From an uncultured Mycoplasmatota bacterium (GTDB taxonomy: Bacteria; Bacillota_I; Bacilli_A; RF39; UBA660), in NCBI GenBank assembly GCA_946497925.1, contig CAMMMG010000001.1, forward strand, positions 6,192 to 70,191: 64,000 bases of DNA, read 5' to 3'. The position numbers and the translations under genes are program-made. Position 1 is the first letter of the stretch. Each line of letters starts with the position of its first letter. Of the stretch, positions 38,650 through 56,332 are shown one piece after another. The notes under the pieces are model-generated. The model ran no database searches and had not been told where the DNA came from. It saw only the letters and a program-made list of their open reading frames with translations.

Positions 38650-38652
38650 GTT

Positions 38653-39591
38653 ATGAATGATGTAAGAGAACAATTGAAATATGTAGTGGAGAATAGTGAT
38701 TATGTAAAAATTAATTATACTCAATTAGATAGTTTTATAAAGAGTTTAGGGAAGCCAAATTATCAACATTGGTATAATTTTACTTCTTTAAATTTAAACG
38801 AAAAGGAAAAAATTATTTTAGCTTTTATAATAGAAAGTTTAAATTTTTGTTTTTGGCAAAAGCCAAAATTTAAAATTGAATATAAAGGTAATATTATAAA
38901 AGGGTCTGAGGCTTTATTTTATTCAATTATAAGAGAAGTAGAATCTAATAAAGACTTTTTAGATATAGAATTTTTAAATAAATTAACAAAAGATGATTTT
39001 GAAAAAATATTTTATTCGCCTGATAGTAAAATACCTTTATTTGATTTAAGATATGATCTTTTTAAAGATACTGTTAAAACAATGTATAATAAAGGCCAGA
39101 GTTTTTTTGATGAATTGTTTAATAAGAAATCAGATGTTGATTTATTAAAGTATATTGTGTCAGAATTTAAGTATTTTGATGATAGTAGTATCTATAAAGG
39201 TAAAAGAATAGAGTTTAATAAACGTGCTACTTTACTTGTTAATGACTTATATTATATGTCATCTACAATACATAATAATTTAAAAAATGTTGATAATTTA
39301 ACAGGTTGTGCTGATTATGGTATACCAAGGACTTTAAGGACGTATGGGATTTTAGAATATAATGAGGAATTATCTAACATAATTGATAATGAGATAGAGT
39401 TAAAGCATGATAGTAATATGGAAATTGAAATTAGAGCTAATATGCTTTATGTATTAGAATTAATTAGAGAAAAATTAGAAAATGAAGGTATTAAAATTAA
39501 TTCTGTAGAATTAGATAATGTTATTTGGCAGATGGGAACGAAGAAGAAAAATGTAAATCCATATCATCATACAATTACAATATTTTATTAG
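38653..39591 (+). CDS. hypothetical protein (312 aa), last gene of the cargo operon
   Basis: Track ORF in the same operon. A hairpin terminator lies downstream at ~39740-39778. Confidence 0.5.
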   Translation: MNDVREQLKYVVENSDYVKINYTQLDSFIKSLGKPNYQHWYNFTSLNLNEKEKIILAFIIESLNFCFWQKPKFKIEYKGNIIKGSEALFYSIIREVESNKDFLDIEFLNKLTKDDFEKIFYSPDSKIPLFDLRYDLFKDTVKTMYNKGQSFFDELFNKKSDVDLLKYIVSEFKYFDDSSIYKGKRIEFNKRATLLVNDLYYMSSTIHNNLKNVDNLTGCADYGIPRTLRTYGILEYNEELSNIIDNEIELKHDSNMEIEIRANMLYVLELIREKLENEGIKINSVELDNVIWQMGTKKKNVNPYHHTITIFY

Positions 39592-41655: not shown

Positions 41656-43251
41656 ATGGCTATGATAGAAAAGGTAGGTGTATATTGTAGATTATCTGAT
41701 GAAGATAGGTTTAAAGCTAATAAGAATGATGATAGTGATAGCATTGTAAATCAAAAGAGTATGTGTATTAAATATGCTCTTAAGCAAGGCTGGGATGTTG
41801 TAGATATTTATTCTGATGATGATTTCTCTGGGGCAGGTACTTATAGACCTGAATTTGAAAGATTAATTAAAGATTGTGAAAGTGGTAGAATTAATTTAGT
41901 TTTATGTAAAACACAATCTAGGTTTTCAAGAGACATGGAGATAATAGAAAAATACTTACATAATAAGTTCATCGAATGGAATGTTAGATTTGTTAGTATT
42001 GTAGATAATGCTGATACTAATATTGAATCTAATAAGAAATCAAGACAAATTAATGGACTAATAAATGAGTGGTATTTGGATGACTTATCACAGAACATTA
42101 AGAAATCATTAAAGAATAAAAGAGAAGATGGCTTATTTATGGGTAGCTTTGCTCCTTATGGTTATATGAGAAGTAGTGAAGATAAACATAAGTTAGTTAT
42201 TGATCCTGTTGCTAGTAAAGTTGTAAAAGATATTTTTAAAATGTATGAGAATGGTTATGGATATTATAAGATAAGCGAATATTTAAATAATGCTAACGTC
42301 TTAACACCAGCTTTATATAAAAAGCAAAATGGTAGTAAGTATGTATCTGGGACTTGTGATTATGATAATGTACGTTGGACTAGTGATACAATTGCAAAAA
42401 TTCTTAGGAATGAAGTTTATATTGGCAATTTAGTACAAGGTAAAAAAACATCTTTAGGGTATAAAGTTCATAAGTTTAAAACTGTACCTAAAAAGGATTG
42501 GTGTCTAATTGAAAATGCTCATGAGGCTATTATTTCTAAAGATACTTGGGAAAAGGTCCAGAAAAGACTTGCTAGTCATGAATGTCCTGTTAAATCAGGA
42601 GAAATACATTTCTTAAGTAAAAAAGTGTATTGTCTTAATTGTAAAAAGGTATTTATGAGAAATGTTTATAATGTAAAGGATGGTAAAAGAGCATATTTAC
42701 AATGTAAGGGTGTTAGAAGATTACATAATTGTTGTAATAATAAAGCGATAAGGTTAGATGAGTTAGAAGAAGTCTTATTAAATGCTATTAATGATTTACT
42801 AGATAACTATTATGATAAAGAAAAGCTAGAAAATGAATATAACATCAGAGAATCTAAAAATACAAATGATGAAGGAATTCAGATACTAGAACAAGAAAAG
42901 GTTTTACTTAATAAGAAAATAGAAGAAGAGAAAATATATTATAGAAAACTTTATGAAGATAAGGCTAATCTTGTAATAACTGAAGATATGTTTAAGATGT
43001 TATCAAGTGATTATACTAAAGAAATAGAAGAAATGAATAGAAGAGTTTCTATAATAGATGAAGAAATAGAATCTTTAAAGAAAATAACTGAAAATAAGAA
43101 ACAAGCAAAAGATATTTTAAAGAAATATAAGCATATAAGTAAGTTAAATAAAGTAATAGTAGATGAATTTATTGATAAAGTTTATATAGGAGTTTATGAT
43201 AAAGAAACGAAATCAAGAGATATTGAAATAGAATGGAACTTTGAATTTTAG
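41656..43251 (+). CDS. large serine recombinase (element 1 integrase)
   Basis: The N-terminal resolvase domain VGVYCRLSDEDR contains the catalytic Ser. A recombinase domain and zinc-ribbon follow (CLNCKKV...LQCKG), then a coiled-coil C-terminus. The stop lies 40 nt before attR. Confidence 0.9.
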   Translation: MAMIEKVGVYCRLSDEDRFKANKNDDSDSIVNQKSMCIKYALKQGWDVVDIYSDDDFSGAGTYRPEFERLIKDCESGRINLVLCKTQSRFSRDMEIIEKYLHNKFIEWNVRFVSIVDNADTNIESNKKSRQINGLINEWYLDDLSQNIKKSLKNKREDGLFMGSFAPYGYMRSSEDKHKLVIDPVASKVVKDIFKMYENGYGYYKISEYLNNANVLTPALYKKQNGSKYVSGTCDYDNVRWTSDTIAKILRNEVYIGNLVQGKKTSLGYKVHKFKTVPKKDWCLIENAHEAIISKDTWEKVQKRLASHECPVKSGEIHFLSKKVYCLNCKKVFMRNVYNVKDGKRAYLQCKGVRRLHNCCNNKAIRLDELEEVLLNAINDLLDNYYDKEKLENEYNIRESKNTNDEGIQILEQEKVLLNKKIEEEKIYYRKLYEDKANLVITEDMFKMLSSDYTKEIEEMNRRVSIIDEEIESLKKITENKKQAKDILKKYKHISKLNKVIVDEFIDKVYIGVYDKETKSRDIEIEWNFEF

Positions 43252-43293
43252 AATAATATTTAATATTTGGGACTTTCTGCTTCCTTCACATGG

Positions 43294-43561
43294 TGGTGCT
43301 GATCCTGGTGCTGTTAGTGGTGGTTTACAAGAGAAAGACTTTACATTAGATGCATCTTTATATATGTATGAAAGGTTACAACAGTTAGGTATACCTGCTG
43401 TTTTAACAAGAGATTCTGATGAAAACTTAAGTAGAACGGAAAGACTTAGACGGGCTAATGAAGCTTTTGGTGGTAGTAGTAATGCTATACTTATATCAAA
43501 TCATATAAATGCTGGAGGACAGGACGCGTATTATGTGGTTAATTCTAGGCATAGTGTATAA
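43294..43561 (+). pseudogene. middle fragment of the interrupted Amidase_3 gene
   Basis: In frame: GGADPGAVSGGLQEKDFTLDASLYMYERLQQLGIPAVLTRDSDENLSRTERLRRANEAFGGSSNAILISNHINAGG, the central Amidase_3 block. The bacterial sequence ends at 43518 and the frame continues into element 2 to a stop at 43561. Confidence 0.85.
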
Positions 43562-43640
43562 CTTTAATAAGCTTCTTATTTTACTGGATATGATGGTATA
43601 ATAGATATATCAAATTACTTTAAAGGTGAGAGGTGAAAAA

Positions 43641-43703
43641 ATGTTATATATAACTGGTGATACTCATGGTGACTTTTACAGATTTTGTCATTTATGGATT
43701 TAA
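43641..43703 (+). pseudogene. remnant of a metallophosphoesterase gene (first 20 codons only)
   Basis: MLYITGDTHGDFYRFCHLWI then a stop. ITGDTHGD is the MPE motif I. No continuation in any frame. Confidence 0.5.
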
Positions 43704-43817
43704 TGATGTTAATTATAAACCTAATTGTCCTAAAGAATTATAAAAAGTTTAGTAGTTGCAGAGAGTCTGTTTTAAAGATAGGCTCTTTTATTATGGAAAA
43801 AGAAAGGATATGAGAAT

Positions 43818-44114
43818 ATGAAAATAAAAACAAATAGAGAAGAAGGATATATAGTTATGGGTAATTATCATTTAAAAGATAGAAAATTAAGCTTAAAAGC
43901 AAAGGGATTATTGTCAATAATGTTATCTTTACCAGATAGTTGGAATTATTCAACATTAGGGTTAGCCAGTATTTGTATTGAAAGCAGAGATACTATACGA
44001 AAAATATTGAATGAATTGAAAGCAAATAGATATTTAAAAATTATTGAAAATAGAGATAAAAATGGTAGATTTAATTGTGACTATATAATTTATGAAAAAC
44101 CATACGAAAATTAA
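43818..44114 (+). CDS. small HTH-domain protein (98 aa), same family as 40901
   Basis: See the 40901 ORF. Confidence 0.55.
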   Translation: MKIKTNREEGYIVMGNYHLKDRKLSLKAKGLLSIMLSLPDSWNYSTLGLASICIESRDTIRKILNELKANRYLKIIENRDKNGRFNCDYIIYEKPYEN

Positions 44115-44341
44115 TCCAGGTGATTATTACGGGTATATGGATTTCCGTATATGGTTTTTAAAACATAATAAATTATTTAAAATAATTATTAAAACAAATA
44201 GATAAAGTCGATAAAGAAAAAACTCAATAAAATTAGGGATTCAATTTATGTCGAATCATAGTAAATAATAAAGATTTATTGTATAATATTTATATAAGAA
44301 ATTTTAAGTATTACTTTATATAATTAGGAGGTGATCATGTA

Positions 44342-45313
44342 ATGTTTAATGAACTAGTTGATATTAAAGAAGAGAATTTATTACAGGCAAACAATGAAAT
44401 TTTATCTACTTTGCTTTTTGATAATACTACAAAAAAAAATATTATATGGGCTTCTGATAATTATGAAGGATATGGAGATGGATTTAGCTTTTCTCAAGAA
44501 ATAACAATTGATAAAATTACAGGTAAATATGATGGTGTAATAAAACCTCGTTCAAGAAAAACATCAAATGAGAAGTTGAAAAGAATTAAGGACAATGGAG
44601 AAGTTTTTACTCCATCATGGATATGTAATGAACAAAACAATCTAGTAGATGATGCGTGGTTTGGTAAAAAAAATGTATTTAATGTATCAGAACAAAAAAA
44701 ATGGATAGCTAACGAGTCAAAAATTGAATTTACAAAAGATAAAACATGGCAAGATTATGTAAAAAGTTTAAGATTAGAAATTTCTTGTGGAGAGGCTCCT
44801 TATCTCGTAAGTAGGTATGATACTGTTACGGGAAAAAGTATTAAAATCAGTGATAGAATTGGTTTATTAGATAGAAAATTGAGAGTGTTATCTGAAAATG
44901 TAGATTTAGAAAATGAATGGATAGATTGGTCAATTGTTGCTGTAAAAAGTATATATGGATATGATTTACAAGGCGATAATATTTTACTTGCAAGAGAAAA
45001 TATTTTATATACTTATATAGATTATTACAAAGATAAATTTAATAAAAAACCATCTCTTGATTTAATTAAGGAAATAGCCAAAATTATTAGTTGGAATATT
45101 TGGCAAATGGATGGTTTAAAATTCGTAATACCTAGAAGTTGTAAAAATGAAATAATTAAAGAATATACATTGTTCGGAGATATTGAAACAAAAACAGAAT
45201 GTACTGGGTGCAAAACGAACAATTATAAAGATCATAATGGCATTTACTGTAAAATAATGAATTGGGAAAAAAATAAAACCGTTAAATTTTATACATTAGT
45301 AAACAAAAAGTGA
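44342..45313 (+). CDS. methyltransferase-like protein carrying only the N-terminal gamma-class MTase motifs (X and a glycine-poor motif I); no catalytic motif IV
   Basis: GEVFTPSWICNEQNNLV fits the FTP motif X of Eco57I/PglX-type N6-MTases. RLEISCGEAPYLV aligns to motif I (LEPSCGxGxFL) with two of its three glycines replaced. No (N/D)PP(Y/F) is present. Confidence 0.5.
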   Translation: MFNELVDIKEENLLQANNEILSTLLFDNTTKKNIIWASDNYEGYGDGFSFSQEITIDKITGKYDGVIKPRSRKTSNEKLKRIKDNGEVFTPSWICNEQNNLVDDAWFGKKNVFNVSEQKKWIANESKIEFTKDKTWQDYVKSLRLEISCGEAPYLVSRYDTVTGKSIKISDRIGLLDRKLRVLSENVDLENEWIDWSIVAVKSIYGYDLQGDNILLARENILYTYIDYYKDKFNKKPSLDLIKEIAKIISWNIWQMDGLKFVIPRSCKNEIIKEYTLFGDIETKTECTGCKTNNYKDHNGIYCKIMNWEKNKTVKFYTLVNKK

Positions 45314-45323
45314 GGTGAGATAG

Positions 45324-48300
45324 ATGGAGAATAAAGAATTATTAGATAAAATAATTGTTGGAAGAGTAGAACCACATATTTATGCTTTTACAACAAATAC
45401 AATACCTAATTATTTGAAAGTAGGAGATACTTATAGACCTGTATCAGTAAGACTTAATGAATGGAAAGAAGTGTATCCTGAATTAAAAAAAGAGTATGAA
45501 AAGAAAGCGATGGTTGACGAAAATATTTTCTTTAGAGATTATGCAGTTCATCATTATTTAGAAAATGATTTAAATAAAGAGCGAATAAATCCTAATGACT
45601 TTTCTAATATATATGTTTCAAATGAATTTTTTAAGGAAACTTCTGTTATAGATGTGGAATCTGCGATAGAAGATATTCAAAAAAGTTATGAAGAAAACTT
45701 GATGAAGTATCAATATTACAATGCAAATAGTAGATTAAGAACAATCGAAAGATATGTTTCAACAGGCTATTGGAAACCAAGACCAAATCAACAAACTGTT
45801 ATTGATAAATTTGTAGAGGCATATAAAAAAGGTAGAAATAATTTGTTAATGTACGCTATTATGCGTTTTGGAAAGAGTTTTACATCAATGTGTTGTGCAT
45901 TAGAGATGGATGCAAATATAGTTGTCATCGTGTCGGCAAAAGCAGATGTTAAAGAAGAATGGAAAAAAACGGTTGAAAGTGCAGAAAATTTTAATGAATA
46001 TGATTTTTTAACAAGTGAAGATTTACTTGATGAAAATATAATTAAAAATAAAAGAAGAGAAAATAGAAGATTAGCAATATTTTTAACTCTTCAGGATTTA
46101 CAGGGGACTGAAATAAAAGAAAAACATAAAGAATTATTCAATAATCAGATAGATTTATTATTAATTGATGAAACTCATTTTGGTGTAAGAGCCGACAAAT
46201 ATGGTGCTGTGCTTAGAGCTGGATTCAAAGATGTTAATGAGACTAGGGAAGATGGATTTGTTGATTTTGAGGATGCTAATAATCAAGTAAAGGCTTTGAA
46301 TTCAAAAATAAGAATTCATTTATCTGGAACACCATATAGAATTCTAATGGGAAGTGAATTTTCACATGATGATATTATAGCATTTTGCCAATTTTCTGAC
46401 ATTGTAAGCGAGCAAGAGAAGTGGGATAATGAACACTTTAAAGATATCGAAAATGGTGTAATAAACGATGAAACGGGTAAACCTTATGAAGAGTGGGATA
46501 ATCCATATTTTGGATTTCCACAAATGATAAGATTTGCTTTTAATCCAAATGAATCTGTAAGGAGAAGGCTAGAAAAATTGAAAAATAATGGAAACTTTTA
46601 TGCATTTTCCGAGTTGCTTAGAACGAATTCAATTAGACAAAATTCAAATGGTGAACATAAAAAATTTATTTATGAAAGTGAAGTGTTAGATTTATTAGAA
46701 GTTATTGATGGTACTAAGGATGATGTAAATGTATTAGGTTTTTTGGATTATGATAAAATTAAAGAAGGGAAAATGTGTCGCCATATCGTAATGGTATTAC
46801 CTTATCGTGCTTCATGTGATGCTTTAGAAGAATTAATAAAAAATAATAGTGATAAATTTAAAAATTTAAATGAATATGAGATTATAAATATATCAGGTGT
46901 TGATAAGCCTAATTTATATAAAAATGTTAAAGATATAAAAAATAAAATTAAAGATTATGAAAAGGAAAATAAGAAAACCTTAACATTAACAGTCAATAGA
47001 ATGCTTACTGGTAGTACTGTGGAAGAATGGGACACGATGATATATTTAAAGGATACATCATCTCCACAAGAATATGATCAAGCAATTTTCAGGTTGCAGA
47101 ATCAATATGTCAAAGATTATTTATCTAGTAATGGGGATTTAATTAAATATAATAAGAAGCCGCAAACATTATTAGTTGATTTTGATCCAAATAGAATGTT
47201 TATAATGCAAGAAACAAAAGCTATGATATATAACGCAAATGTTGATAAATCTGGAAATAGTAAATTAGAAGAAAGAATTAGAAATGAGTTAAATATATCT
47301 CCAATAATTGTATTAAATAAAAACAAGATTCAGAAAATACAAGCCATTGATATTATGAATGCAATAAGTAACTATTCTAAAGACAGGGGAGTTTTTGAAG
47401 AAGCTGGTGATATCCCAGTGGATTTATCTCTTATTGCTGTTCCAGAAATATTTGAAGTTATTTCAAAACAAGGAGAATTTGGAACAAGACAAGGATTTAG
47501 AGTTAATAATACAGATACTGATAGTGATGATAATGATTCTTTTGACTTTGGAGAATTAAGCGAGACTTTATTTGATTATCCACAAGATACCGAGATTGAA
47601 AGTCAAACAGGAACGTCAAGCAATCAAAAAGAGAAGAATGATATAAAAAGTAATTTAACAAAACAATTTAGAACTTATTATGCTAGAATTTTGTTCTTTG
47701 CAATATTAACAAAAGATTCCGTATCGTCATTAGAAGATATAATTAATGTAATTAACCAAGGAGAAAATAAAAGAATTGCAAATCATTTAGGATTGAGCAA
47801 AGAAGTTTTGTTTTTGATTAATAAAGAGATAGATATATTCATTTTAAGACAGCTTGATTATAAGATTCAAAATATAAATAGTTTATCAAATGATGATTCA
47901 CTATCTGAGATTGAAAGAGCTACTATTGCTATTAATAAATTTGATAAACTATCTGACTCTGAAGTTATAACTCCACAAAATGTATGTAGAGATATGCTAG
48001 AAATGATAGGAAAAGATAAGATTGTTGATATTATTAATAATAAAGGTAATATTTTAGATATTGCAAGCAAAGAAGCAGAATTTATGTTATCATTAGTTAA
48101 TATTTTAAAAGAAAATAATGTTTCCAATGAAAGATATAAAAATAATCTATATTCAATTCCAACTTCAGGTGTTGCTTATGAATTTACCAGAAAGATATAC
48201 GAAATATTAGGATTAAATATAAGCAATATTTCCGAAAAATTTGATTCTTATGATTTATTAAATGTTAAAACAGATGATAATATAGATTATGAAAAAATTG

Positions 48301-49415
48301 TTAATTATATAACGCAAACACAAACGTTTTCAGATATAGAATTAGATGATAATTTATTTAGTAATATGAAAGGAGATGAAAGAATGCACTTTGATATTGT
48401 TGTTGGTAATCCTCCATATCAAGAAGCTGATGGTGGTGCAGGAGCGAGTGCTAGACCTATATACAATTATTTTGTAAATCTTTCTAAAAAATTAGATCCT
48501 AAATTTGTTTCACTAATTATACCTTCTCGTTGGTATGTTGGCGGGAAAGGATTAGATGAGTTTAGAAAAGATATGGTCAATGATATACATATAAAGGAAT
48601 TACATGATTGCTTAACACCCGATGATATTTTTCCAAATACTAATAATCGTGGTGGAATTTGCTATTGGTTATGGGACAAAAGTTATAATAATAAAGAAAA
48701 TTCTGTTAAAGTAATAACCCATTCCAATAATAAAGTAGTAGATGAAATGATTAGACCTTTGAAATTGTATGATGAAGATATATTTATTAGAGATAGCAGA
48801 GCAAAGACTATTTTAGATAAAATTGTAACAAAAGATTTTAAATCCTTTAGTGAGATAGTATCGTCAAGAAAACCGTTTGGACTTGATGGAAATTTTGCCA
48901 GAAGTAACAAAATAACAAATGAAAAAACAAAAGAAAATACTGTTATTTGCTATATTAAGGGTAAGAAAAAAGTATTTGTTAATTTAAAATCAATTTTATG
49001 TCATGGTGATTGGGTTGATAGTTGGAAAGTATTTATTCCTAGAGCAAATAATATTGGTACTGAATTAAATGATGATAATATGAATTCTTTTGTTGGTGAA
49101 CCAAATACAATATGTACTGAATCATATTTAGTTGTTGGAGCAGATTTATCATTAAATCAGGAAACATCTAAAAATTTAGCTAAATACTTGCAAACAAAAT
49201 TCTTGAGATATTTACATAGTTTATTAAAAAGTAGTCAAGATGCTACTTCTAAAACTTTTAGTTATGTACCAATAGAAGATTTTGGTGAAAATTCAAGCAT
49301 TGATTGGTCGAAATCAGTTTCTGAAATAGATATGCAATTATATGAAAAATACAGTCTTGAAAAAGAAGAAATAAATCATATTGAAGAAAAAATTAAGCCA
49401 ATGGAGCAATTATGA
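45324..49415 (+). CDS. 1363-aa multidomain protein: N-terminal T5orf172/GIY-YIG-like domain, SF2 (Res/SNF2-like) helicase, and C-terminal N6-adenine DNA methyltransferase-like domain plus a possible target-recognition region
   Basis: The N-terminus GRVEPHIYAFTTNTIPNYLKVGDTYRPVSVRLNEW resembles the T5orf172 module. Helicase motifs are RPNQQTVI (Q), AIMRFGKSFT (I), LLLIDETHFG (II, DExH), LSGTPYR (III), and V/VI-like LTGSTV and QAIFRLQN. The MTase has motif IV FDIVVGNPPYQEADGG preceded by a degenerate motif I, ILDIASKEAEF. Confidence 0.75.
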   Translation: MENKELLDKIIVGRVEPHIYAFTTNTIPNYLKVGDTYRPVSVRLNEWKEVYPELKKEYEKKAMVDENIFFRDYAVHHYLENDLNKERINPNDFSNIYVSNEFFKETSVIDVESAIEDIQKSYEENLMKYQYYNANSRLRTIERYVSTGYWKPRPNQQTVIDKFVEAYKKGRNNLLMYAIMRFGKSFTSMCCALEMDANIVVIVSAKADVKEEWKKTVESAENFNEYDFLTSEDLLDENIIKNKRRENRRLAIFLTLQDLQGTEIKEKHKELFNNQIDLLLIDETHFGVRADKYGAVLRAGFKDVNETREDGFVDFEDANNQVKALNSKIRIHLSGTPYRILMGSEFSHDDIIAFCQFSDIVSEQEKWDNEHFKDIENGVINDETGKPYEEWDNPYFGFPQMIRFAFNPNESVRRRLEKLKNNGNFYAFSELLRTNSIRQNSNGEHKKFIYESEVLDLLEVIDGTKDDVNVLGFLDYDKIKEGKMCRHIVMVLPYRASCDALEELIKNNSDKFKNLNEYEIINISGVDKPNLYKNVKDIKNKIKDYEKENKKTLTLTVNRMLTGSTVEEWDTMIYLKDTSSPQEYDQAIFRLQNQYVKDYLSSNGDLIKYNKKPQTLLVDFDPNRMFIMQETKAMIYNANVDKSGNSKLEERIRNELNISPIIVLNKNKIQKIQAIDIMNAISNYSKDRGVFEEAGDIPVDLSLIAVPEIFEVISKQGEFGTRQGFRVNNTDTDSDDNDSFDFGELSETLFDYPQDTEIESQTGTSSNQKEKNDIKSNLTKQFRTYYARILFFAILTKDSVSSLEDIINVINQGENKRIANHLGLSKEVLFLINKEIDIFILRQLDYKIQNINSLSNDDSLSEIERATIAINKFDKLSDSEVITPQNVCRDMLEMIGKDKIVDIINNKGNILDIASKEAEFMLSLVNILKENNVSNERYKNNLYSIPTSGVAYEFTRKIYEILGLNISNISEKFDSYDLLNVKTDDNIDYEKIVNYITQTQTFSDIELDDNLFSNMKGDERMHFDIVVGNPPYQEADGGAGASARPIYNYFVNLSKKLDPKFVSLIIPSRWYVGGKGLDEFRKDMVNDIHIKELHDCLTPDDIFPNTNNRGGICYWLWDKSYNNKENSVKVITHSNNKVVDEMIRPLKLYDEDIFIRDSRAKTILDKIVTKDFKSFSEIVSSRKPFGLDGNFARSNKITNEKTKENTVICYIKGKKKVFVNLKSILCHGDWVDSWKVFIPRANNIGTELNDDNMNSFVGEPNTICTESYLVVGADLSLNQETSKNLAKYLQTKFLRYLHSLLKSSQDATSKTFSYVPIEDFGENSSIDWSKSVSEIDMQLYEKYSLEKEEINHIEEKIKPMEQL

Positions 49416-50419
49416 ATAATGAAGTAGAATTAATTAATCTATATAAGAAATTGGAATCACTTCCTAAAATTAAAAAGTGTTTGTATCCAGACAAAGAACA
49501 TTGCAAAGGAAAAATCAAAAGAGCTCATACTATACAAAATAATAAAATTTTGATAAGTGTTTCTGATAATGGGAATCTAATTGCATTAAATGGCAAAACA
49601 ACTCTAGGATTTCAAGATTATGAAAAACAAGGAAGAGGAGTAGCAAGTACTTTTTGGGGATTTTGTGATTATCATGATACTGTTGTTTTTGAACCTATTG
49701 AAAATTATGATTATGATAAATCTTTAAAACAAACATTTTTATATACATACAGAACTTTTTCGTGGCATTATTATTTAAAAGAGATGCAATTAAATAAAAA
49801 TAATTATTTACAAGAGAAAATTCCTGTTAATATGGAAAGTAATGAGTATTTTTTAGGTACTTCGCTAGGAATTAGTGATAATAAAAAATTGAAAGAAAAA
49901 TTTGATAAAGCAATTTTGAGTAATAATTATGACATAATAAAATATTATGTTTGGGAAATTCCATTTAAAATAGAGTTTTGCTGTTGTGGTATGGTGCAAT
50001 TATTTAAAGATTTACGAGGAAATGATATTAATAATTACGAGGGTTTAGCAAATATTAATAAACCAATGAAAAATCTTTTTATAAATATATTTCCAGAAAA
50101 AAATAAATCATATTGCATTTTTTCATGGATGGTTGATGATTTTGAATACGAAAATTTTACTCTTCAATTTTCAAAATTGACTTTTAAAAACAAGATAAAT
50201 TATATGAATAATATGCTACCAAAGGAAACTGATAAAATTTTTATTAATCCAAAATTATGGAATAAATGGGGAAATGGTATTCAACAGTCATTTATTGAAT
50301 GGGCAAATGTCAGTATGTTGCTTAATGCAATGCAAGCAGAATCACATAAACGAATAAAATGGAAGTATTCGTTTGTTCCATGGAATTTATTTGATTGTTC
50401 TGAAAAATTAAAGAAGTAA
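49412..50419 (+). CDS. hypothetical protein (335 aa), translationally coupled (ATGA overlap) to the giant helicase-MTase gene
   Basis: Track ORF with a 4-nt overlap with the upstream stop. No recognisable motif. Cys/His-containing, including a CCCG stretch. Confidence 0.5.
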   Translation: MNNEVELINLYKKLESLPKIKKCLYPDKEHCKGKIKRAHTIQNNKILISVSDNGNLIALNGKTTLGFQDYEKQGRGVASTFWGFCDYHDTVVFEPIENYDYDKSLKQTFLYTYRTFSWHYYLKEMQLNKNNYLQEKIPVNMESNEYFLGTSLGISDNKKLKEKFDKAILSNNYDIIKYYVWEIPFKIEFCCCGMVQLFKDLRGNDINNYEGLANINKPMKNLFINIFPEKNKSYCIFSWMVDDFEYENFTLQFSKLTFKNKINYMNNMLPKETDKIFINPKLWNKWGNGIQQSFIEWANVSMLLNAMQAESHKRIKWKYSFVPWNLFDCSEKLKK

Positions 50420-50432
50420 GAGGTGAAGTTTT

Positions 50433-52937
50433 TTGAATCAAAAATGGTTATTATGTGATTTACATATGCATTCACAATATTCAAAAATAAATAAACCAGG
50501 TGATAAAAGTAGAGTAAAAGATATGGTAGCTAGTGAATTTGTTGATATACTTAATCAGTCAGGTGTTGAATTATTTAGTATAACTGATCATAATTATTTT
50601 TCTGATGTTTACTATGATGAAATCGATAAATATATTACCGATAATGATTTAAATATGAAAATTATAAATGGTGTTGAATTAGATGCATATGTTGAATTAA
50701 AAGATGGAACAAAGGATAGTATTCATATTTGTATATATTTTTCAGATAGTACTGATAGAAAAAAGCTTAATAAAGTAATTTATTCATTATACAGAGATAA
50801 CAACGATAATATGTTAGAACCTTTATTTATGGAAATAATAAATAAATTGACTGAACTCAATACAAAGTTTATCATAATTCCTCATGGAGATAAGCATAAG
50901 GGACTATTTAAAATAATTAAAAATTTAAATAGTGAAGATGCCGTTGATTTTTATAAGTATTCAATGTATAAAATATTTAATGCATTTGATGTGAGACCAG
51001 GATTTTATAGTGTAAGCGAATCATTTTGGGCTACAAATTTTTACGAAAAAACTAAGTCATTTGATAAAATTCTGTCAAATTATGATGATGATAAATTAGA
51101 AAATTTGAAGAGTAATATTTCAAATAAAATAAAGGATGATACTTACGAGTTAACGGAAGAAGAACTGGAGATATATAGATATATATTAGATTATGGAAGT
51201 TATTTTGCATATTTCACTTTTTCTGATTGGCATAATAAAGAAGATTACAAACCAGAAATAAATAATTTCGTATTTGGAACACTTGAATATGGCTTTGAAG
51301 CAGTAGAATTAGCAACATTAGATCCTAAATCGCGAATAGAACAATCTCATGATAAATATATTGCAATTCCTTCTACATTATTAAAAAAAGTTGAATTTAA
51401 AATAAAAGATGATAAGAAAGAAATTTATTTTTCCCCTGGATTAAATGCTATTGTTGGTAAAAGAGGCAGTGGTAAGTCACTATTATTATCTGTTATAAAA
51501 AATTTAGTAGAAAAAGACGCAGAAGATGGTGCATTAAATAAGTATAAAAAGTTAGAAATTTCAGATATTATTGGACAAAATCGCGATAATATTAACATTT
51601 CTTTAGGCAGTTTAAGTTCTGTAGCGTTCTTGAATCAAGATCAAATTAAAGAGATATTTGAAAATCCAGAAAACGCACAAGAAAATATATCTAAAAATTT
51701 TAAGGAAATTAAGAATTTAAATTTAAATGATTTGATAAATATATCTGATGTAGCTAGTAAACTTAAGCCATATAATAAAAATTATAAAAATCTAACATCG
51801 AATATTATTTCAATAAAGAAAATTGATGATTATAATTTAAGTGCATATGAAGAACTTGATAATGTTAATTTTAAAAAATATTTTAGTGATAGTATTAACT
51901 CTTTGAGACTTGCCATAAATGAATTAGAAAATTTGGGATTAGATAGTAGTAAATTAGAAATAGAACTTTCTAATTTATATAAATATCAAAAATATTATTT
52001 AAAAATGATTGAATTATACAATACAATTATTAATAAGAATAATGCAGTTATTAATGATATTAATTCAAAGAAATCAGCAAATGAGATAACAATAAAGCAG
52101 AATATAAATACTATAAATAGTACGATTAAAGAATTAAAAAATAATTTTACAATCCAATTAAACTATGAAAAATTAAAATTATTAATTAACAATTTTAGTT
52201 TTGACAATCCTCCTGTTGAAGTGTCGATTAAGGGTAAATATTTATTTGTAACATATTATGATATACCTACAAATATGAGAGATATAATATTAGATAAAAT
52301 TACAGATACAATTATTCGTTCAAAAGAATTCGGAGATATTGAAAATTATCTTTCGGGTGATAAGAATAAGCAATTGAAGTCGGGAAAGAAGAATCTTTCT
52401 GAAGAATTAGATAAATATATAAAGAGTGATACATTCAAATCAAAAAAAGAATTTTATGAAATAATAGATGCATCTATTGATTATAAGAAACAAATAAGTA
52501 GTATGAACGAATTAGAAGATTACTTAAAACAAAATAAAATAAGAAATTTAACGGACGCATCACCTGGTATGAAAAGTGTAGCGTATTTGGATATGTTGTT
52601 TGATTTAGATGAGACAATTCTGATTTTAGATCAACCAGAAGATAATATAGATAATGACTATATAAGTAAATATTTAGTTCCTAATATTAAGGGTAAAAAG
52701 AAGATTAAACAATTAATATTTGTAACTCATAATCCGTCTGTTGCTGTATATGGCGATTCATTTAACTATGTGTATGTAGAAAATAACAATAAAATAAATT
52801 ACACAAATTATTTAATAGAGAGAAAAGAAGATAAGGATAAGTTGATAAATATTTTAGAAGGTGGAAAGAATAGTTTCTCAAATAGAAATAAAAAATTTGG
52901 AAATGTATTAGGAGATGAAGAATATGGAAATTATTAA
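50433..52937 (+). CDS. fusion of an N-terminal PHP-domain metal-dependent phosphoesterase/nuclease with an ABC/AAA_21-type ATPase separated by a long coiled-coil/insert
   Basis: PHP motifs are LCDLHMHSQYS and ITDHNYFS. Walker A is SPGLNAIVGKRGSGKSLL (about residue 340). Walker B/D-loop is ILILDQPEDNIDNDY (about residue 735), then FVTHNP (H-loop-like). Confidence 0.7.
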   Translation: MNQKWLLCDLHMHSQYSKINKPGDKSRVKDMVASEFVDILNQSGVELFSITDHNYFSDVYYDEIDKYITDNDLNMKIINGVELDAYVELKDGTKDSIHICIYFSDSTDRKKLNKVIYSLYRDNNDNMLEPLFMEIINKLTELNTKFIIIPHGDKHKGLFKIIKNLNSEDAVDFYKYSMYKIFNAFDVRPGFYSVSESFWATNFYEKTKSFDKILSNYDDDKLENLKSNISNKIKDDTYELTEEELEIYRYILDYGSYFAYFTFSDWHNKEDYKPEINNFVFGTLEYGFEAVELATLDPKSRIEQSHDKYIAIPSTLLKKVEFKIKDDKKEIYFSPGLNAIVGKRGSGKSLLLSVIKNLVEKDAEDGALNKYKKLEISDIIGQNRDNINISLGSLSSVAFLNQDQIKEIFENPENAQENISKNFKEIKNLNLNDLINISDVASKLKPYNKNYKNLTSNIISIKKIDDYNLSAYEELDNVNFKKYFSDSINSLRLAINELENLGLDSSKLEIELSNLYKYQKYYLKMIELYNTIINKNNAVINDINSKKSANEITIKQNINTINSTIKELKNNFTIQLNYEKLKLLINNFSFDNPPVEVSIKGKYLFVTYYDIPTNMRDIILDKITDTIIRSKEFGDIENYLSGDKNKQLKSGKKNLSEELDKYIKSDTFKSKKEFYEIIDASIDYKKQISSMNELEDYLKQNKIRNLTDASPGMKSVAYLDMLFDLDETILILDQPEDNIDNDYISKYLVPNIKGKKKIKQLIFVTHNPSVAVYGDSFNYVYVENNNKINYTNYLIERKEDKDKLINILEGGKNSFSNRNKKFGNVLGDEEYGNY

Positions 52938-53199
52938 AAAGAATGAGGCTATACAATTAGTTGAAAATCAAAAAATTATTGAGGAATATAAGTTTGATAA
53001 TGAAATTAATTTTTCAAAATTAATGGAATATTTATTATCATTAAACTTATCTAAAAAAATCACATTAGACGATAAAGTCTCTAATAAAAAATTGGAAGAA
53101 GAAAATTTGTTAAAAATAATAACTAATATTATAAATGACTACAATAATAAAACAGAGGAATTAGAGACTTTTAAGAAGGAAATAGAGAATAAAGATTAA
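52915..53199 (+). CDS. small acidic/coiled-coil protein (94 aa), overlaps the end of the PHP-ATPase gene
   Basis: Track ORF with a 23-nt overlap with the upstream gene. Possible operon member. Confidence 0.4.
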   Translation: MKNMEIIKKNEAIQLVENQKIIEEYKFDNEINFSKLMEYLLSLNLSKKITLDDKVSNKKLEEENLLKIITNIINDYNNKTEELETFKKEIENKD

Positions 53200-53454
53200 T
53201 GATATATAATAAATAGCTGATAGATAAAAATGTAGATTGTGTCCGGTGACTGTCCTAATATTTTGTGTTAAAATGATAATATAGGAAAGTTGTAAGGGGA
53301 TAGCAATAATTTGTATTTTTGCAAATTATTTTTTCTTCCACATATCCTTATTTTATAACGAATTGTGAAGCATTTAATGGAAATTGTGCCATTGCAATTC
53401 CTATTATTTTGTGGTATTATGGTAATATAGGGTAATTATAAAAAGGGGCTATTT

Positions 53455-53479
53455 GAGAGATTTTTTATCTCTCTTTTTT
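53455..53479 (+). terminator. rho-independent terminator closing the element-2 operon
   Basis: Stem GAGAGAT / ATCTCTC followed by TTTTTT. Confidence 0.5.
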
Positions 53480-53727
53480 CATGCCCATTTTTATTTTTAT
53501 CAAAAGAAAGAGGGTGAGTTATATTTTTAAAAATTGATAATGAATTTTATAAAATAGTTGAAATATTAAATGAAATTTTGATTTAAAAACTCCTAAACTG
53601 TCGGAGACTATTAGTGGGTTTTAGGGATATTCTCTAACAAGCTAGATAGGTGTGTATACACCATGCTTGATATATTGTATTATACGGATATGTAACCTCA
53701 AAATAGGATTTAATTGTAACCTAAAAT

Positions 53728-54324
53728 GTGGTAGAAAATGAAAGGAGAAATATGGAGTTTAAATCAATGGAAAAGTGGCGCGTTTTACAGAAGTTTAATA
53801 TGAGTGAAAAGCAGTATAAGAGACTAGTGAAAAGATTAGAAAGAAGACATCCTAATGAAAGATGGATTGATGAACATTTTGCTCAGAATGGTGAAAGAGT
53901 AGTATATCTAAAATTGGAACTTGTAGAATGGATAGAAGAAGTTTATTTAAATAACAATCTATTTTATTTAGATGCTGAAATTGTTTTCTTTAAAAAACAA
54001 ATATTAAGATTAGAAGACGAGCTTAATTTTCCTCATAATGAATTTGAATATAAAGATATATCTTTATATGATTTAAGAAGTTATTTTAATAGAAGTAAAA
54101 ATGTTATTGGTGTTGCAGTTAATAGAATGGAAAAAAGAAATAATCAATTATTTAAGTATTTAAAAGATGGTAAAGTAATAATTTCTAAAGAAGGCGTTAA
54201 ATGGTTAAGTGAAAACTATTTCCGTAAAGATTATTTAAAAAAACTAGAATTTTACAAATTAGAACTTCAAAATGTTAAGCGAAAACGAAATAGATTAAAA
54301 GAATATAATATTTTCTATTACTAG
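53728..54324 (+). CDS. hypothetical basic protein (198 aa) of element 2
   Basis: RBS AAAGGAGAAATATG upstream. Lys/Arg-rich. Possibly a DNA-binding or regulatory protein. Confidence 0.45.
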   Translation: MVENERRNMEFKSMEKWRVLQKFNMSEKQYKRLVKRLERRHPNERWIDEHFAQNGERVVYLKLELVEWIEEVYLNNNLFYLDAEIVFFKKQILRLEDELNFPHNEFEYKDISLYDLRSYFNRSKNVIGVAVNRMEKRNNQLFKYLKDGKVIISKEGVKWLSENYFRKDYLKKLEFYKLELQNVKRKRNRLKEYNIFYY

Positions 54325-54574
54325 ATTAGTTTGAAATATAACTAATTTTTTTATGCTCTAATTTTGATAATAAAGTCTTATAGTCGTTCTTATTTCATAA
54401 AATAAAAGGAGAGGTGTAGATTAGTGAACATAACTGAAACTTTCGATAAAGATAAAAACTTGGTTGATTTAATAGAGGAGTACTTAAAATTGATGTTAGA
54501 AAATAGTAAGCAGTAAAAGTTTGTGGTATAATGATATTGCTTATTGAAGTTATGCACATTGGAAGGAGTAGTAA

Positions 54575-56200
54575 GTGTATAACAATATAATACAAGCACC
54601 AAGTTTTTATAGAGTAGGTTTATATATCAGATTATCAGAAAGTGATGAAGATAAAACTTATGAGTCAGAGAGTGAAAGTATAATCAATCAAAGAAATTTA
54701 TTAATGGATTATGTAAAAATGAGTGGATATACTTTGGTTGATGAATATGTAGATGATGGATTTACTGGAACTAACTTTGATAGACCTTCTTTTCAAAGAT
54801 TATTAAAAGATATTGAAAGTGGTCGAATCAATTGTGTAATCACGAAAGACTTATCAAGATTAGGTAGAGATTACATTCAATGTGGTTATTATGTAGAACA
54901 ATATTTTCCACAAAAGAAAATTAGATATATTTCTATACTAGATCAAGTTGATACATTTCTAGAAAGCGCTAATAATGACATTGCTCCATTTAAAGCTTTG
55001 TTTAATGATATGACTAGTAAAGATACTTCTAAGAAGATTCGTTCAATACTAAAAAATAAAAAAGAACAAGGTAAATTTATAGGTAGTAAACCTTGTTATG
55101 GATATATGAGAGATCCACTTGATAAAGGACATTTAATACCCGATCCAGAAGTTGCTCCCGTTGTTAAAAAGATATTTAAAATGGCTCATTCTGGAACTGG
55201 AGTAAGCGACATAGTATCATACTTAAATGATAATAAGATATTAAGTCCTAGTATGTATAAAAATACTAAATCATCTTCAAGACAAAAAGTGAACGTATGG
55301 ACAATATCCTCAGTAAATAAATTATTAAAAAATAGAATGTATACAGGGGATATGGTACAAAATGTTCAAACAAAATTAAGCTATAAATCTCAAAAGAAAG
55401 TTGCTTTAGAAAAAGAGTTTTGGATAATAGTAGAAAACACTCATGAACCTCTAGTTAGTAAGACAGTATTTGAAGCAATACAAAATGCTCCTGCAAGAGT
55501 AAGAACAACTCATTGTAATAGAGAAAAAAGATTATTAGAAAATCTACTTGTATGCAAAGAATGCGGCAATTCTTTAAGTGTTCTTTATAGAAAAAATAAA
55601 AACTATAAGGATGGAAAATATTGGAGTGTTAATTGCAATAAATATGCAAGAGATCCAAGAAGACATTTGTGTTATCCACATTTCTTTCCTTATGATAAAC
55701 TAGAAGAAAAAATAATGAGTGTTATTAAAACTACTTGTCAAAAATATTTAGATAGTTTAAATATCAAAGAGTTATCTGAAAGAGTATTACAAGATAGAAC
55801 AAAGGAAAAGAATGATAGGCAAAAGGAAAAGCAACAATTATTAAATGAGATTGATGAATTAAAAAGAAAATCTGATGCTTTATATGATGACAAATTTAAT
55901 GGGATAATAAGTGTTGGTACTTATACAAGAATCTCTACGCAAACTGAAAAACAAATATCAGCCTTAAATTATAGAATTTATGAAATAGATAATGAAGAAA
56001 ATCAGATTAAAGAAGATACAAAAGAAATAGCTAAACATGAAGAACAAATAAAATCACTTTTAAATTTAGATGAACCCAACAGAGAACTCATAAAAACTTT
56101 AGTAAAAAATATTTATATTGATAAAGATAGAAATATAGAAATTCAATACAGATTTAAGATGCTAGATGATATAAAAACTAATTATGAAGAAATAAATTAA
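54575..56200 (+). CDS. large serine recombinase (element 2 integrase)
   Basis: YRVGLYIRLSESDEDK is the resolvase catalytic domain. A recombinase domain, a zinc ribbon (CKECGNS...CNKYAR) and a coiled coil follow. It is about 40% identical to the element-1 recombinase. Confidence 0.9.
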   Translation: MYNNIIQAPSFYRVGLYIRLSESDEDKTYESESESIINQRNLLMDYVKMSGYTLVDEYVDDGFTGTNFDRPSFQRLLKDIESGRINCVITKDLSRLGRDYIQCGYYVEQYFPQKKIRYISILDQVDTFLESANNDIAPFKALFNDMTSKDTSKKIRSILKNKKEQGKFIGSKPCYGYMRDPLDKGHLIPDPEVAPVVKKIFKMAHSGTGVSDIVSYLNDNKILSPSMYKNTKSSSRQKVNVWTISSVNKLLKNRMYTGDMVQNVQTKLSYKSQKKVALEKEFWIIVENTHEPLVSKTVFEAIQNAPARVRTTHCNREKRLLENLLVCKECGNSLSVLYRKNKNYKDGKYWSVNCNKYARDPRRHLCYPHFFPYDKLEEKIMSVIKTTCQKYLDSLNIKELSERVLQDRTKEKNDRQKEKQQLLNEIDELKRKSDALYDDKFNGIISVGTYTRISTQTEKQISALNYRIYEIDNEENQIKEDTKEIAKHEEQIKSLLNLDEPNRELIKTLVKNIYIDKDRNIEIQYRFKMLDDIKTNYEEIN

Positions 56201-56332
56201 GTAATGAAAATAGGGTGGTAAAATTTGTTAATCACACAATCTCACCATCCCCTATACTATTTTTAGAAAAAATGAAAATGCAGTAAAATCAAGGAAAAAT
56301 GATAGCCTAATCACATAAAATCTTTCCGGAGG

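What the first reader, a model, noticed from the sequence alone, without database searches (positions are those of the whole stretch)
44342..53199. Element-2 cargo: five-gene defence-like operon with a T5orf172-helicase-N6-MTase giant protein, an MTase-like partner and a PHP-ABC ATPase, an architecture I cannot assign to a named system
Five ORFs are translationally coupled or separated by less than 15 nt (44342-45313, 45324-49415, 49412-50419, 50433-52937, 52915-53199). The 1363-aa protein has the single-polypeptide layout of Type ISP restriction-modification enzymes: nuclease, SF2 motor, gamma-class N6-adenine MTase, then a target-recognition-like tail. Its nuclease position, however, is occupied by a T5orf172/GIY-YIG-like module rather than the Mrr/PD-(D/E)xK domain I expect there. 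Its MTase domain keeps a strong motif IV (GNPPYQ) but has a glycine-less motif I. It is followed by an unknown 335-aa protein and by a PHP-phosphoesterase fused to an ABC-type ATPase. The operon sits on a mobile element next to a recombinase, the typical context of anti-phage or anti-plasmid islands. The combination of a Type ISP-like motor-MTase with a swapped nuclease, a split pseudo-MTase and a PHP-ATPase does not match BREX, DISARM, Type I-IV RM, Gabija, Septu or Lamassu as I know them. I cannot exclude overlap with the published single-gene Ppl (PHP-like) system for the last gene.
Basis: partly seen in the sequence, partly recalled or inferred. Interest (0 to 1): 0.85.

Follow-up and report, generated by a model that had tools for sequence, protein, structure and literature searches.

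The report
Three stacked defence modules, not one system
The five tightly packed genes are real, but they are three independent anti-phage modules parked side by side on a mobile element: a widespread but uncharacterised helicase-type restriction-modification pair, an orphan protein with no known fold, and a Ppl-like nuclease-ATPase pair.

Summary
g2 is T5orf172-like + SF2 motor + NPPY N6-adenine MTase + variable tail. g1 is MTase-like. g4 is PHP + ABC-type ATPase.

- g1+g2 are adjacent in 77-79 of 80 species-level genomes, from at least 572 matches. None of the 80 carries g3, g4 or g5, and the gene after g2 varies (GmrSD, KAP NTPase, TIR, PDDEXK and others).
- g4+g5 travel together in 25 of 25 informative metagenome loci, without g1-g3.
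- g3 occurs without g1/g2 or g4 elsewhere.
- Sister copies of the same element replace g4+g5 with a Gabija-like pair, or g3-g5 with a KAP NTPase.

REBASE-derived PADLOC models already match g1 and g2 over their full length (Type II MTase; Type IIG enzyme). I read the pair as a Type ISP-like ATP-dependent restriction-modification enzyme with a GIY-YIG-superfamily nuclease and an obligate half-methyltransferase partner. I found no experimental study of it.

g4 is related to Ppl, TrlF and Spaf_1101 but scores below every family cut-off. g3 gives a confident model with no structural match. Overall: a new variant of known kinds, of moderate interest.

The parts
44342..45313 (+). g1: half-methyltransferase partner of g2. 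It has gamma-class motifs X (EVFTP, aa 87-91), I (LEISCGEAPYL), II (SIYGYD) and III-like (NIWQMDGL), no motif IV, and a Cys/His cluster at the C-terminus (C267, C287, C290, H298).
45324..49415 (+). g2: 1363-aa single-polypeptide restriction-modification-type enzyme.
   Evidence: PADLOC REase_MTase_IIG PDLC03626, 1506 bits, full length. Pfam ResIII + Eco57I. More than 4500 homologues.
45366..45677 (+). g2 N-terminal T5orf172-like (GIY-YIG superfamily) putative nuclease domain, aa ~15-118.
   Evidence: No direct Pfam or PHROGs hit. 25 of 28 aligned family N-termini hit PF10544 and 13 of 28 hit MUG113. The Tyr of hIYaF, KxG, D72, H76 and E101 (EFF/EWF) are conserved.
45774..47300 (+). g2 SF2 helicase-like motor: Walker A MRFGKS (aa 180-185), DETH (282-285), SGTP (334-337). 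The C-terminal lobe extends to about aa 660; that end is approximate.
   Evidence: Pfam ResIII aa 151-338, E 7e-11. Motifs located.
47961..48374 (+). g2's own MTase N-half: motif X (SEVITP, aa 879-884) and motif I variant (ILDIASKEAEF, aa 910-920).
   Evidence: Alignment A5. The family-wide motif I is (D/E)xxxK(S/T)Gx(F/Y). The Pfam Eco57I match starts at aa 940.
48375..49412 (+). g2 C-module: motif IV GNPPYQ (aa 1028-1033) plus a variable tail that presumably recognises the target. It behaves as a swappable cassette.
   Evidence: PADLOC MTase_II PDLC03375 matches aa 1018-1360. It exists as a stand-alone gene right after g1 in L050. It is 31-39% identical in L008, where the rest of g2 is 92-94% identical.
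49412..50419 (+). g3: orphan 335-aa protein with invariant C23, C31, H39, C85, H88, D89 and E97. An independent module.
50433..52937 (+). g4: PHP phosphoesterase (aa ~4-300) fused to an ABC/SMC-type ATPase (aa ~323-825) with a long helical insert.
   Evidence: NCBIfam TrlF 227.6 bits (cut-off 350), Ppl 88.9 (cut-off 1000), Spaf_1101 81 (cut-off 475). PADLOC Ppl E 1.4e-20, partial. PHP residues D9, H11, H13, D52, H53 and H267 are invariant in 18 homologues, as are Walker A, Q-loop, signature, Walker B and H-loop.
52915..53199 (+). g5: 94-aa helical protein, obligate partner of g4. Its start overlaps the end of g4 by 23 nt.
   Evidence: A g5 homologue overlaps the g4 stop in 25 of 25 metagenome loci where the g4 3' end is present, down to 45% g4 identity. 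No family hit.
53455..53473 (+). Terminator-like hairpin followed by a T-run. It is the only strong candidate between g5 and the next gene.
   Evidence: Consensus scan. Weak evidence: 2 sites found against 1.6 expected.
43519..56332 (.). Element-2, a 12.8-kb integrative element that carries the island. Ends: attL ...AATGCTGGAGG|ACAGG and attR ...CCGGAGG|TGGAGAAGG. It also holds an HTH_36 gene (43818-44114), an unknown gene (53728-54324) and a large serine recombinase (54575-56200).
   Evidence: Pfam. Junction sequences. In-frame reconstitution of the amidase gene. The same recombinase and insertion site carry different cargo in L006-L009 and L017.

Best explanation
The region is a small defence island on a serine-recombinase integrative element. 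It holds three self-contained modules that are probably co-transcribed but are not one system.

Module A (g1+g2) is a Type ISP-like, ATP-dependent restriction-modification enzyme. Shown: the domain order and the strict pairing of the two genes. Inferred by analogy with LlaGI/LlaBIII:
- the C-terminal NPPY + tail cassette recognises an asymmetric site and lays down m6A on host DNA;
- on unmodified DNA the SF2 motor translocates;
- the N-terminal T5orf172/GIY-YIG-type domain nicks or cuts.
g1 is a half-methyltransferase (motifs X-I-II-III, no catalytic motif IV). I infer that it binds the MTase part of g2 as an obligate structural or regulatory subunit. This follows from the strict pairing and from variants in which g1 is followed only by the NPPY cassette.

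Module B (g3) is a stand-alone protein of unknown fold with a conserved Cys/His cluster. It is possibly a Zn-dependent nuclease-like effector. This is a guess from the motif pattern.

Module C (g4+g5) is a Ppl/TrlF-like PHP exonuclease fused to an ABC-type NTPase. It works with a small helical partner. By analogy with Ppl, it probably attacks phage DNA ends under nucleotide control.
For: Modularity:
- g2 follows g1 in 77 of 80 genome loci by tblastn, plus 2 more by Pfam. None of the 80 has g3, g4 or g5.
- The gene after g2 in 41 loci is heterogeneous: GmrSD 6, KAP NTPase 3, YhcG 2, TIR 2, and others.
- g4+g5 are paired in 25 of 25 loci without g1-g3, and the upstream neighbours are unrelated to each other.
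- g3 occurs on its own in L011 and L012.
- Sister elements: L008 has g1+g2+g3 followed by OLD-TOPRIM + UvrD-like genes. L017 has g1+g2 followed by a KAP NTPase.

Module A:
- Full-length PADLOC/REBASE-derived matches and Pfam ResIII + Eco57I.
- T5orf172 in 25 of 28 family N-termini.
- T5orf172 belongs to the GIY-YIG superfamily, and nuclease activity was shown for ICP1 Gp88 (PMC8263062).
- T5orf172 is listed among the nuclease domains of N6A restriction-modification systems (PMC4738411).
- The C-module is swapped between near-identical enzymes.
- g1 is homologous to Pfam-recognised half 'N-6 DNA methylase' partners on plasmids.
- A stand-alone NPPY cassette follows g1 in L050.

Module C:
- NCBIfam and PADLOC hits.
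- Invariant catalytic motifs.
- The published Ppl mechanism (PMC12904381).
Against: - No experiment or methylome is available for any of the five genes.
- The tight spacing and overlaps (ATGA, 23-nt overlap) and the single terminator-like site after g5 fit co-transcription, so functional cross-talk between modules cannot be excluded.
- g3 stays with g1+g2 in L006-L009 and sits in the same island in L013.
- The window's own T5orf172-like domain gets no direct HMM hit, and a family profile found only the family itself among 1.84 billion proteins.
- The g1 structure model is poor (pLDDT 65).
- The related B. subtilis dnmA-yeeB-yeeC cluster gave no phage protection (PMC9973331).
- The 80 genome loci are the best 80 by similarity to g1, not a random sample.
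Confidence: 0.75

Rival explanations
1. One reading: all five genes form one new multi-component defence system. The Type ISP-like enzyme, the pseudo-MTase, g3 and the PHP-ATPase act together.
For: The genes are tightly packed or overlapping, with a single terminator-like site after g5. The quintet recurs in L006 and L007.
Against: L006 and L007 are the same element at 87-93% identity, so they are not independent evidence. None of 80 other g1+g2 loci has g3-g5. None of 25 g4+g5 loci has g1-g3. Sister elements swap the downstream genes.
Confidence: 0.05
2. In this lineage g3 is a recruited third subunit of the g1+g2 enzyme, for example an extra effector. That would make a three-gene system followed by a separate g4+g5 module.
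For: The g3 start overlaps the g2 stop (ATGA). g3 is kept at 90% identity after g2 in L008 and L009, where g4+g5 are replaced. A 37%-identical g3 homologue lies in the same island as a g1+g2 pair in L013.
Against: g3 is absent from 80 of 80 other g1+g2 loci. It occurs without g1+g2 next to DUF4238 in L011 and near prophage recombinases in L012. In L013 a SMODS-SLATT pair separates it from g2.
Confidence: 0.12
3. g1+g2 is not a cleaving restriction enzyme. It would be a methylation-only or epigenetic relic, or a BREX-like exclusion system that blocks phage replication without cutting.
For: The B. subtilis MTase-helicase-T5orf172 cluster dnmA-yeeB-yeeC showed no restriction or phage defence, and DnmA behaves as an orphan MTase (PMC9973331). 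The window's motif I lacks glycine. No direct HMM hit supports the nuclease domain in this copy.
Against: The putative catalytic residues of the T5orf172-like domain, the helicase motifs and NPPY are conserved across hundreds of species. Cassette swapping of the C-module suggests ongoing diversifying selection typical of active restriction-modification systems. The pair sits consistently in defence islands. The V. crassostreae homologues of dnmA and yeeB do affect phage sensitivity (cited in PMC9973331).
Confidence: 0.15

Closest known systems
Type ISP restriction-modification enzymes (LlaGI, LlaBIII)
   Same: One polypeptide with the order nuclease, SF2 motor, gamma-class N6-adenine MTase, target-recognition tail. 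LlaBIII is the top structural match of the g1 model. The context is plasmids and mobile elements in Firmicutes.
   Different: The nuclease is T5orf172/GIY-YIG-type rather than Mrr/PD-(D/E)xK. A strictly co-conserved half-MTase partner gene (g1) is present, whereas Type ISP enzymes act as single polypeptides. There is no sequence-level hit to LlaGI or LlaBIII chains in the PDB.
REBASE 'Type IIG' class (Eco57I-like bifunctional R-M enzyme plus a separate M gene), as modelled in PADLOC
   Same: PADLOC REase_MTase_IIG and MTase_II models match g2 and g1 over their full length. The Pfam Eco57I MTase domain is present. The two-gene layout with an accessory 'M' gene is shared.
   Different: Classical Type IIG enzymes have no helicase motor. 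Here g1 lacks motif IV, so it cannot be a conventional second MTase like M.Eco57I.
B. subtilis DnmA(YeeA)-YeeB-YeeC cluster and its V. crassostreae homologues
   Same: The same three activities are associated: N6A MTase, SF2 helicase and a T5orf172/GIY-YIG protein. It sits on a horizontally acquired island next to recombinases (PMC9973331).
   Different: There the activities are three separate proteins, with an MmeI-like MTase. Here they are fused, with an Eco57I-type MTase plus a half-MTase partner. g2 has no MmeI_Mtase Pfam hit.
Ppl (single-gene PHP-NTPase anti-phage exonuclease), TrlF (Photorhabdus temperature-restricting locus) and Spaf_1101 ATPases
   Same: g4 has the same PHP + ABC/AAA-like NTPase architecture, and it hits all three NCBIfam models and PADLOC Ppl.
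   Different: All scores are far below the family cut-offs (89 against 1000, 228 against 350, 81 against 475). g4 always has a small downstream partner (g5), whereas Ppl is described as a single gene. TrlF sits with TrlG and TrlR, which are absent here (bioRxiv 10.1101/2020.06.02.129163).

Membership tests
Type ISP restriction-modification | Single polypeptide with nuclease, SF2 helicase-like motor, N6A MTase and TRD, in that order | tested here: met
   Pfam ResIII at aa 151-338 and Eco57I at 940-1103. A T5orf172-like N-terminus is supported through family members. The C-module is variable.
Type ISP restriction-modification | Mrr-family PD-(D/E)xK nuclease domain | tested here: not met
   The N-terminal domain aligns with T5orf172/MUG113-positive relatives. 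No Mrr or PD-(D/E)xK hit.
Type ISP restriction-modification | Self-sufficient single polypeptide with no accessory subunit | tested here: inconclusive
   g1 is adjacent in 77-79 of 80 genomes, which argues for an obligate partner. Dependence was not tested experimentally.
Type ISP restriction-modification | ATP-driven translocation with collision-dependent cleavage, and one-strand m6A at an asymmetric site | not testable with these tools
   Needs biochemistry and a methylome.
REBASE/PADLOC RM Type IIG | Match to the curated REase-MTase fusion model | tested here: met
   PDLC03626, 1505.9 bits, profile positions 7-1359 of 1359.
REBASE/PADLOC RM Type IIG | [quoted passage not shown] | not testable with these tools
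   An intact SF2 motor (Walker A, DETH, SGTP) argues against this mode of action.
Ppl anti-phage protein | NCBIfam equivalog NF042955 at or above its cut-off | tested here: not met
   88.9 bits against a cut-off of 1000. The PADLOC Ppl match is partial: the best stretch covers aa 701-820.
Ppl anti-phage protein | PHP exonuclease + NTPase in one protein that acts as a single-gene system | tested here: inconclusive
   The architecture is met. A strictly co-conserved partner g5 (25 of 25 loci) departs from the single-gene definition.
TrlF family | NCBIfam NF045780 at or above its cut-off, in a trlG/trlR neighbourhood | tested here: not met
   227.6 bits against a cut-off of 350, covering aa 4-450 only. 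No Alba_2/HATPase_c_4 (TrlG-like) gene is nearby.
BREX / DISARM / Gabija / Septu / Lamassu / Hma / MADS | Signature proteins (PglZ, BrxC; DrmA/B; GajA/B; PtuA/B; LmuA/B; HmaA-C; Mad1-8) | tested here: not met
   The PADLOC scan of all five proteins gives only RM models for g1 and g2. For g4 it gives weak ATPase-level hits to Ppl, mad3 (E 1.6e-13), mad8 and HEC-02B.
DnmA-YeeB-YeeC cluster | MmeI-like MTase lacking a nuclease, with separate helicase and T5orf172 genes | tested here: not met
   The activities are fused in g2. The MTase is Eco57I-type with no MmeI_Mtase hit. Split versions of the g2 family do exist on plasmids.

The most novel reading that the evidence does not exclude
g1+g2 represents a distinct, very widespread class of ATP-dependent restriction-modification enzyme (at least 572 species, from Clostridia to Bacteroidales, Treponema and a methanogen bin, plus Enterococcus, Lactococcus and Bacillus plasmids). 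It has not been characterised experimentally. A GIY-YIG-superfamily (T5orf172) nuclease is driven by an SF2 motor. A catalytically incomplete half-methyltransferase subunit is required to complete, license or regulate the MTase/TRD cassette, and this would be a new way of controlling self-modification against restriction. Separately, g3 could be a new single-gene defence protein with a previously unseen fold.
Probability: 0.4. Interest if true: 0.6.

Novelty: new variant of a known kind. Interest (0 to 1): 0.42.

Why it matters
The result shows why tight packing, and even overlapping start and stop codons, do not define a defence system. On this element family, modules are exchanged as cassettes behind a constant restriction-modification pair.

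The pair itself deserves study. It is abundant in gut and rumen anaerobes and on Enterococcus, Lactococcus and Bacillus plasmids. Tools file it automatically under 'Type IIG', yet it combines a motor, a non-canonical nuclease and a strictly linked half-methyltransferase whose role is unknown.

Knowing its recognition sites and its dependence on the partner would help methylome interpretation and genetic access to hard-to-transform Firmicutes. The g4+g5 pair extends the Ppl-type PHP-NTPase nucleases to a two-gene form. g3 is a candidate for a new fold.

Tried and rejected
- Direct Pfam and PHROGs scans of the g2 N-terminus gave nothing, even at E up to 10 (Pfam) or 1 (PHROGs).
- A 12-sequence profile of that N-terminus against 1.84 billion representatives returned only the family itself (288 hits). 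The T5orf172 link had to be made through the more canonical second subfamily.
- Sequence searches of g1, g2, the g2 N-terminus and the g2 C-part against PDB chains found nothing useful.
- g1 was tested as a paralogue of g2's own MTase N-half. hhalign aligned only the motif-X peptide, at 2% probability. BLASTP found nothing.
- g3 was tested as a DUF4238 relative. Only the SEC-C motif of some homologues matched.
- I looked for a conserved third partner upstream of g4. The neighbours do not cluster.
- I looked for a fixed third gene after g2. It is heterogeneous.
- The Rfam scan of the window found only one tRNA.
- The promoter scan is uninformative in this AT-rich DNA (112 sites found against 105 expected).
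- Literature searches for T5orf172 with helicase, methyltransferase, restriction-modification or defence, and for Type ISP with GIY-YIG, found no paper that describes this architecture.


Full report
**Observation.**
- g1: 44342-45313, 323 aa
- g2: 45324-49415, 1363 aa
- g3: 49412-50419, 335 aa
- g4: 50433-52937, 834 aa, TTG start
- g5: 52915-53199, 94 aa

The gaps are 10 nt, a 4-nt ATGA overlap, 13 nt and a 23-nt overlap. The DNA is about 25% G+C with strong positive GC skew. Stop codons are frequent in such DNA, so ORFs of this length are not chance. The only terminator-like hairpin in the stretch follows g5, at 53455-53473. Co-transcription is plausible.

**Domain content.**
- g2 matches Pfam ResIII at aa 151-338 and Eco57I methylase at aa 940-1103. 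The motifs sit at MRFGKS 180-185, DETH 282-285, SGTP 334-337, SEVITP 879-884, ILDIASKEAEF 910-920 and GNPPYQ 1028-1033.
- PADLOC's REBASE-derived models match g2 end to end as 'REase_MTase_IIG' (1506 bits). They match g1 end to end as 'MTase_II' (E 4e-122). A third model covers g2 aa 1018-1360.
- g4 hits the NCBIfam models TrlF (227.6 bits, cut-off 350), Ppl (88.9, cut-off 1000) and Spaf_1101 (81, cut-off 475). It also hits PADLOC Ppl partially.
- g3 and g5 hit nothing in Pfam, NCBIfam, PADLOC or PHROGs.

**The T5orf172 call.** The window's own N-terminus gives no Pfam or PHROGs hit. A profile of close relatives found only the family itself among 1.84 billion proteins. I then aligned 28 N-termini that include a second, more canonical subfamily. 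Scanning each one showed PF10544 (T5orf172) in 25 of 28 (best E 6e-8) and MUG113 in 13 of 28. The window aligns with these sequences. The hIYaF and KxG elements are conserved, as are D72, H76 and the EFF/EWF glutamate (E101). PGAP annotates the separated version of this part as 'GIY-YIG nuclease family protein' on Variovorax and Mycolicibacterium plasmids. T5orf172 belongs to the GIY-YIG superfamily, and nuclease activity has been shown for ICP1 Gp88 (PMC8263062).

**Are the five genes a unit? No.**
- A scan of one genome per species with the g1 alignment found at least 572 matching species. The best 80 loci were fetched.
- g2 lies directly downstream of g1 in 77 of the 80 by tblastn. In two more it is present as T5orf172/ResIII fragments.
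- g3, g4 and g5 are present in none of the 80.
- The gene after g2 in 41 loci is heterogeneous: GmrSD in 6, KAP NTPase in 3, YhcG/DUF1016 in 2, TIR in 2, DUF2971 in 2, plus SMODS, OLD-TOPRIM, RES and others. In L003 the pair sits alone among housekeeping genes.
- A metagenome scan with g4 returned 29 loci at 45-75% identity. A g5 homologue overlaps the g4 stop in all 25 loci where that end is present. None carries g1, g2 or g3, apart from one identical fragment of this same element. The genes upstream of g4 do not cluster with each other.
- g3 has only 21 homologue clusters. It occurs next to a DUF4238 gene in a Type II restriction-modification island (L011), near prophage recombinases (L012), and after a SMODS-SLATT pair in an island that also holds a g1+g2 pair (L013).
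- The clearest evidence comes from sister copies of this very element, which have the same recombinase and the same insertion site. L006 and L007 keep the quintet and add RnlAB and AbiU2. L008 and L009 keep g1+g2+g3 but carry an OLD-TOPRIM ATPase and a UvrD-like gene (Gabija-like) in place of g4+g5. L017 has g1+g2 followed by a KAP NTPase.

The island is therefore [g1+g2] + [g3] + [g4+g5].

**Module A (g1+g2).**
- g1 is a half-methyltransferase. On plasmids of Lactococcus (pCV56A) and B. cereus, distant g2 homologues are preceded by a 230-253 aa gene annotated 'N-6 DNA methylase'. That gene hits Pfam N6_Mtase only over profile positions 20-105/117 of 311.
- The g1 family aligns to the pCV56A partner with hhalign probability 96%, E 3.5e-9. 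The pairings are EVFTP with EVFTP (motif X), LEISCGEAPYLV with the canonical LEPAAGDGNFLV (motif I), SIYGYD with SIYGIE (motif II) and NIWQMD with NIVRGN (motif III region).
- There is no (D/N/S)PP(Y/F) motif anywhere in g1.
- g2 has its own motif X and a family-wide motif I variant, (D/E)xxxK(S/T)Gx(F/Y). The system therefore carries two SAM-pocket halves but only one catalytic NPPY.
- In L050, g1 is followed by a stand-alone protein that begins 'MKFNAIIGNPPYQ'. This is exactly the C-module of g2, covering Eco57I profile positions 73-171. That points to a direct partnership between g1 and this cassette.
- The cassette is swappable. Between the window and L008, g1 is 96% identical and g2 aa 1-700 is 92-94% identical, but aa 1018-1363 is only 31-39% identical. 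This is the pattern expected of a specificity module under diversifying selection.
- By analogy with Type ISP enzymes, I infer site recognition and m6A protection by the C-terminal part, ATP-driven translocation by the SF2 motor and cleavage by the T5orf172 domain. None of these steps is shown.
- Comparative genomics has already listed T5orf172 among the nuclease domains of N6A restriction-modification systems (PMC4738411; Makarova 2011, as tabulated in PMC7251935).
- The split B. subtilis analogue, dnmA-yeeB-yeeC, gave no defence (PMC9973331).
- I found no paper on the fused form or on the half-MTase partner.

**Module C (g4+g5).** In 18 homologues at 45-60% identity the PHP metal ligands are invariant (D9, H11, H13, D52, H53, H267). 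So are all the ABC motifs: Walker A G342-K348, Q402, signature S710/G712, Walker B D733-D737 and H766. [quoted passage not shown] Its PHP and NTPase domains are inhibited by NTPs, and it senses 3'-OH ends (PMC12904381). TrlF is the PHP-ATPase of the Photorhabdus temperature-restricting locus (bioRxiv 10.1101/2020.06.02.129163). g4 fails every family cut-off and always has the g5 partner. I file it as a relative that probably works like Ppl, not as a member of the family.

**Context.** Element-2 (about 43519-56332) interrupts an Amidase_3-LysM gene. Joining 43241-43518 to 56333-57692 restores the frame and gives the motif HINAGGGEGAEVIY.

**Verdict.** What remains of interest is the uncharacterised T5orf172-motor-MTase enzyme with its half-MTase partner, the two-gene Ppl-like module and the orphan g3.

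Noticed in passing
window 29218-29268, 43293-43518, 56333-57692: One Amidase_3-LysM (cell-wall amidase) gene is interrupted twice. Its start (MNERIVTGVVVDAGHGG) lies at 29218. A ~14-kb element-1 (about 29.27-43.29 kb, serine recombinase 41656-43251) and the 12.8-kb element-2 are inserted in tandem. Both insertions are at GG(A/T)GG-type cores, and the pieces join in frame. This recalls developmentally excised 'skin'-like intervening elements.
   Followed up: partly
window 30040-39591: The cargo of element-1 includes a Mob_Pre relaxase, CYTH, an APH-type kinase, GTP cyclohydrolase FolE2, a 670-aa protein with weak methyltransferase hits and a queuosine-salvage (DUF2419) protein. This could be a 7-deazaguanine or queuosine-related module carried on a mobile element.
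   Followed up: no
L050 9989-12848; L078 10001-12643: Minimal variants exist in which g1 is followed only by a stand-alone NPPY + tail protein that starts right at motif IV, with no helicase or nuclease within 10 kb upstream. They look like a gamma-class MTase split between motifs III and IV.
   Followed up: partly
L008 10001-14071 versus window 45324-49415: The C-terminal 345 aa of g2 is swapped as a cassette (31-39% identity) between enzymes that are otherwise 92-94% identical, while g1 stays 96% identical.
   Followed up: yes
L008 15080-17667: In a sister copy of the element, an OLD-family AAA_15 + TOPRIM ATPase and a UvrD-like gene (Gabija-like pair) occupy the exact slot of g4+g5. The first gene overlaps the g3 stop by 8 nt.
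   Followed up: partly
L001, L004, L010, L015, L016: GmrSD-type (Type IV, modification-dependent) nucleases are the commonest immediate neighbour of the g1+g2 pair (6 of 41 downstream genes, and one upstream). This may be complementary pairing or only island co-location.
   Followed up: partly
window 53200-53727: A 530-nt non-coding gap lies between g5 and the next gene. It has a terminator-like hairpin at 53455-53473 and no Rfam match.
   Followed up: partly
L123 3308-7663 (pCV56A): The Lactococcus plasmid homologue of g2 carries a DUF4145 domain at its N-terminus instead of T5orf172. The N-terminal effector of this enzyme family therefore appears to be exchangeable.
   Followed up: no
L011 8839-11005: A g3 homologue starts 1 nt after a DUF4238 gene. 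Several g3 homologues, and that DUF4238 protein, carry SEC-C motifs.
   Followed up: partly
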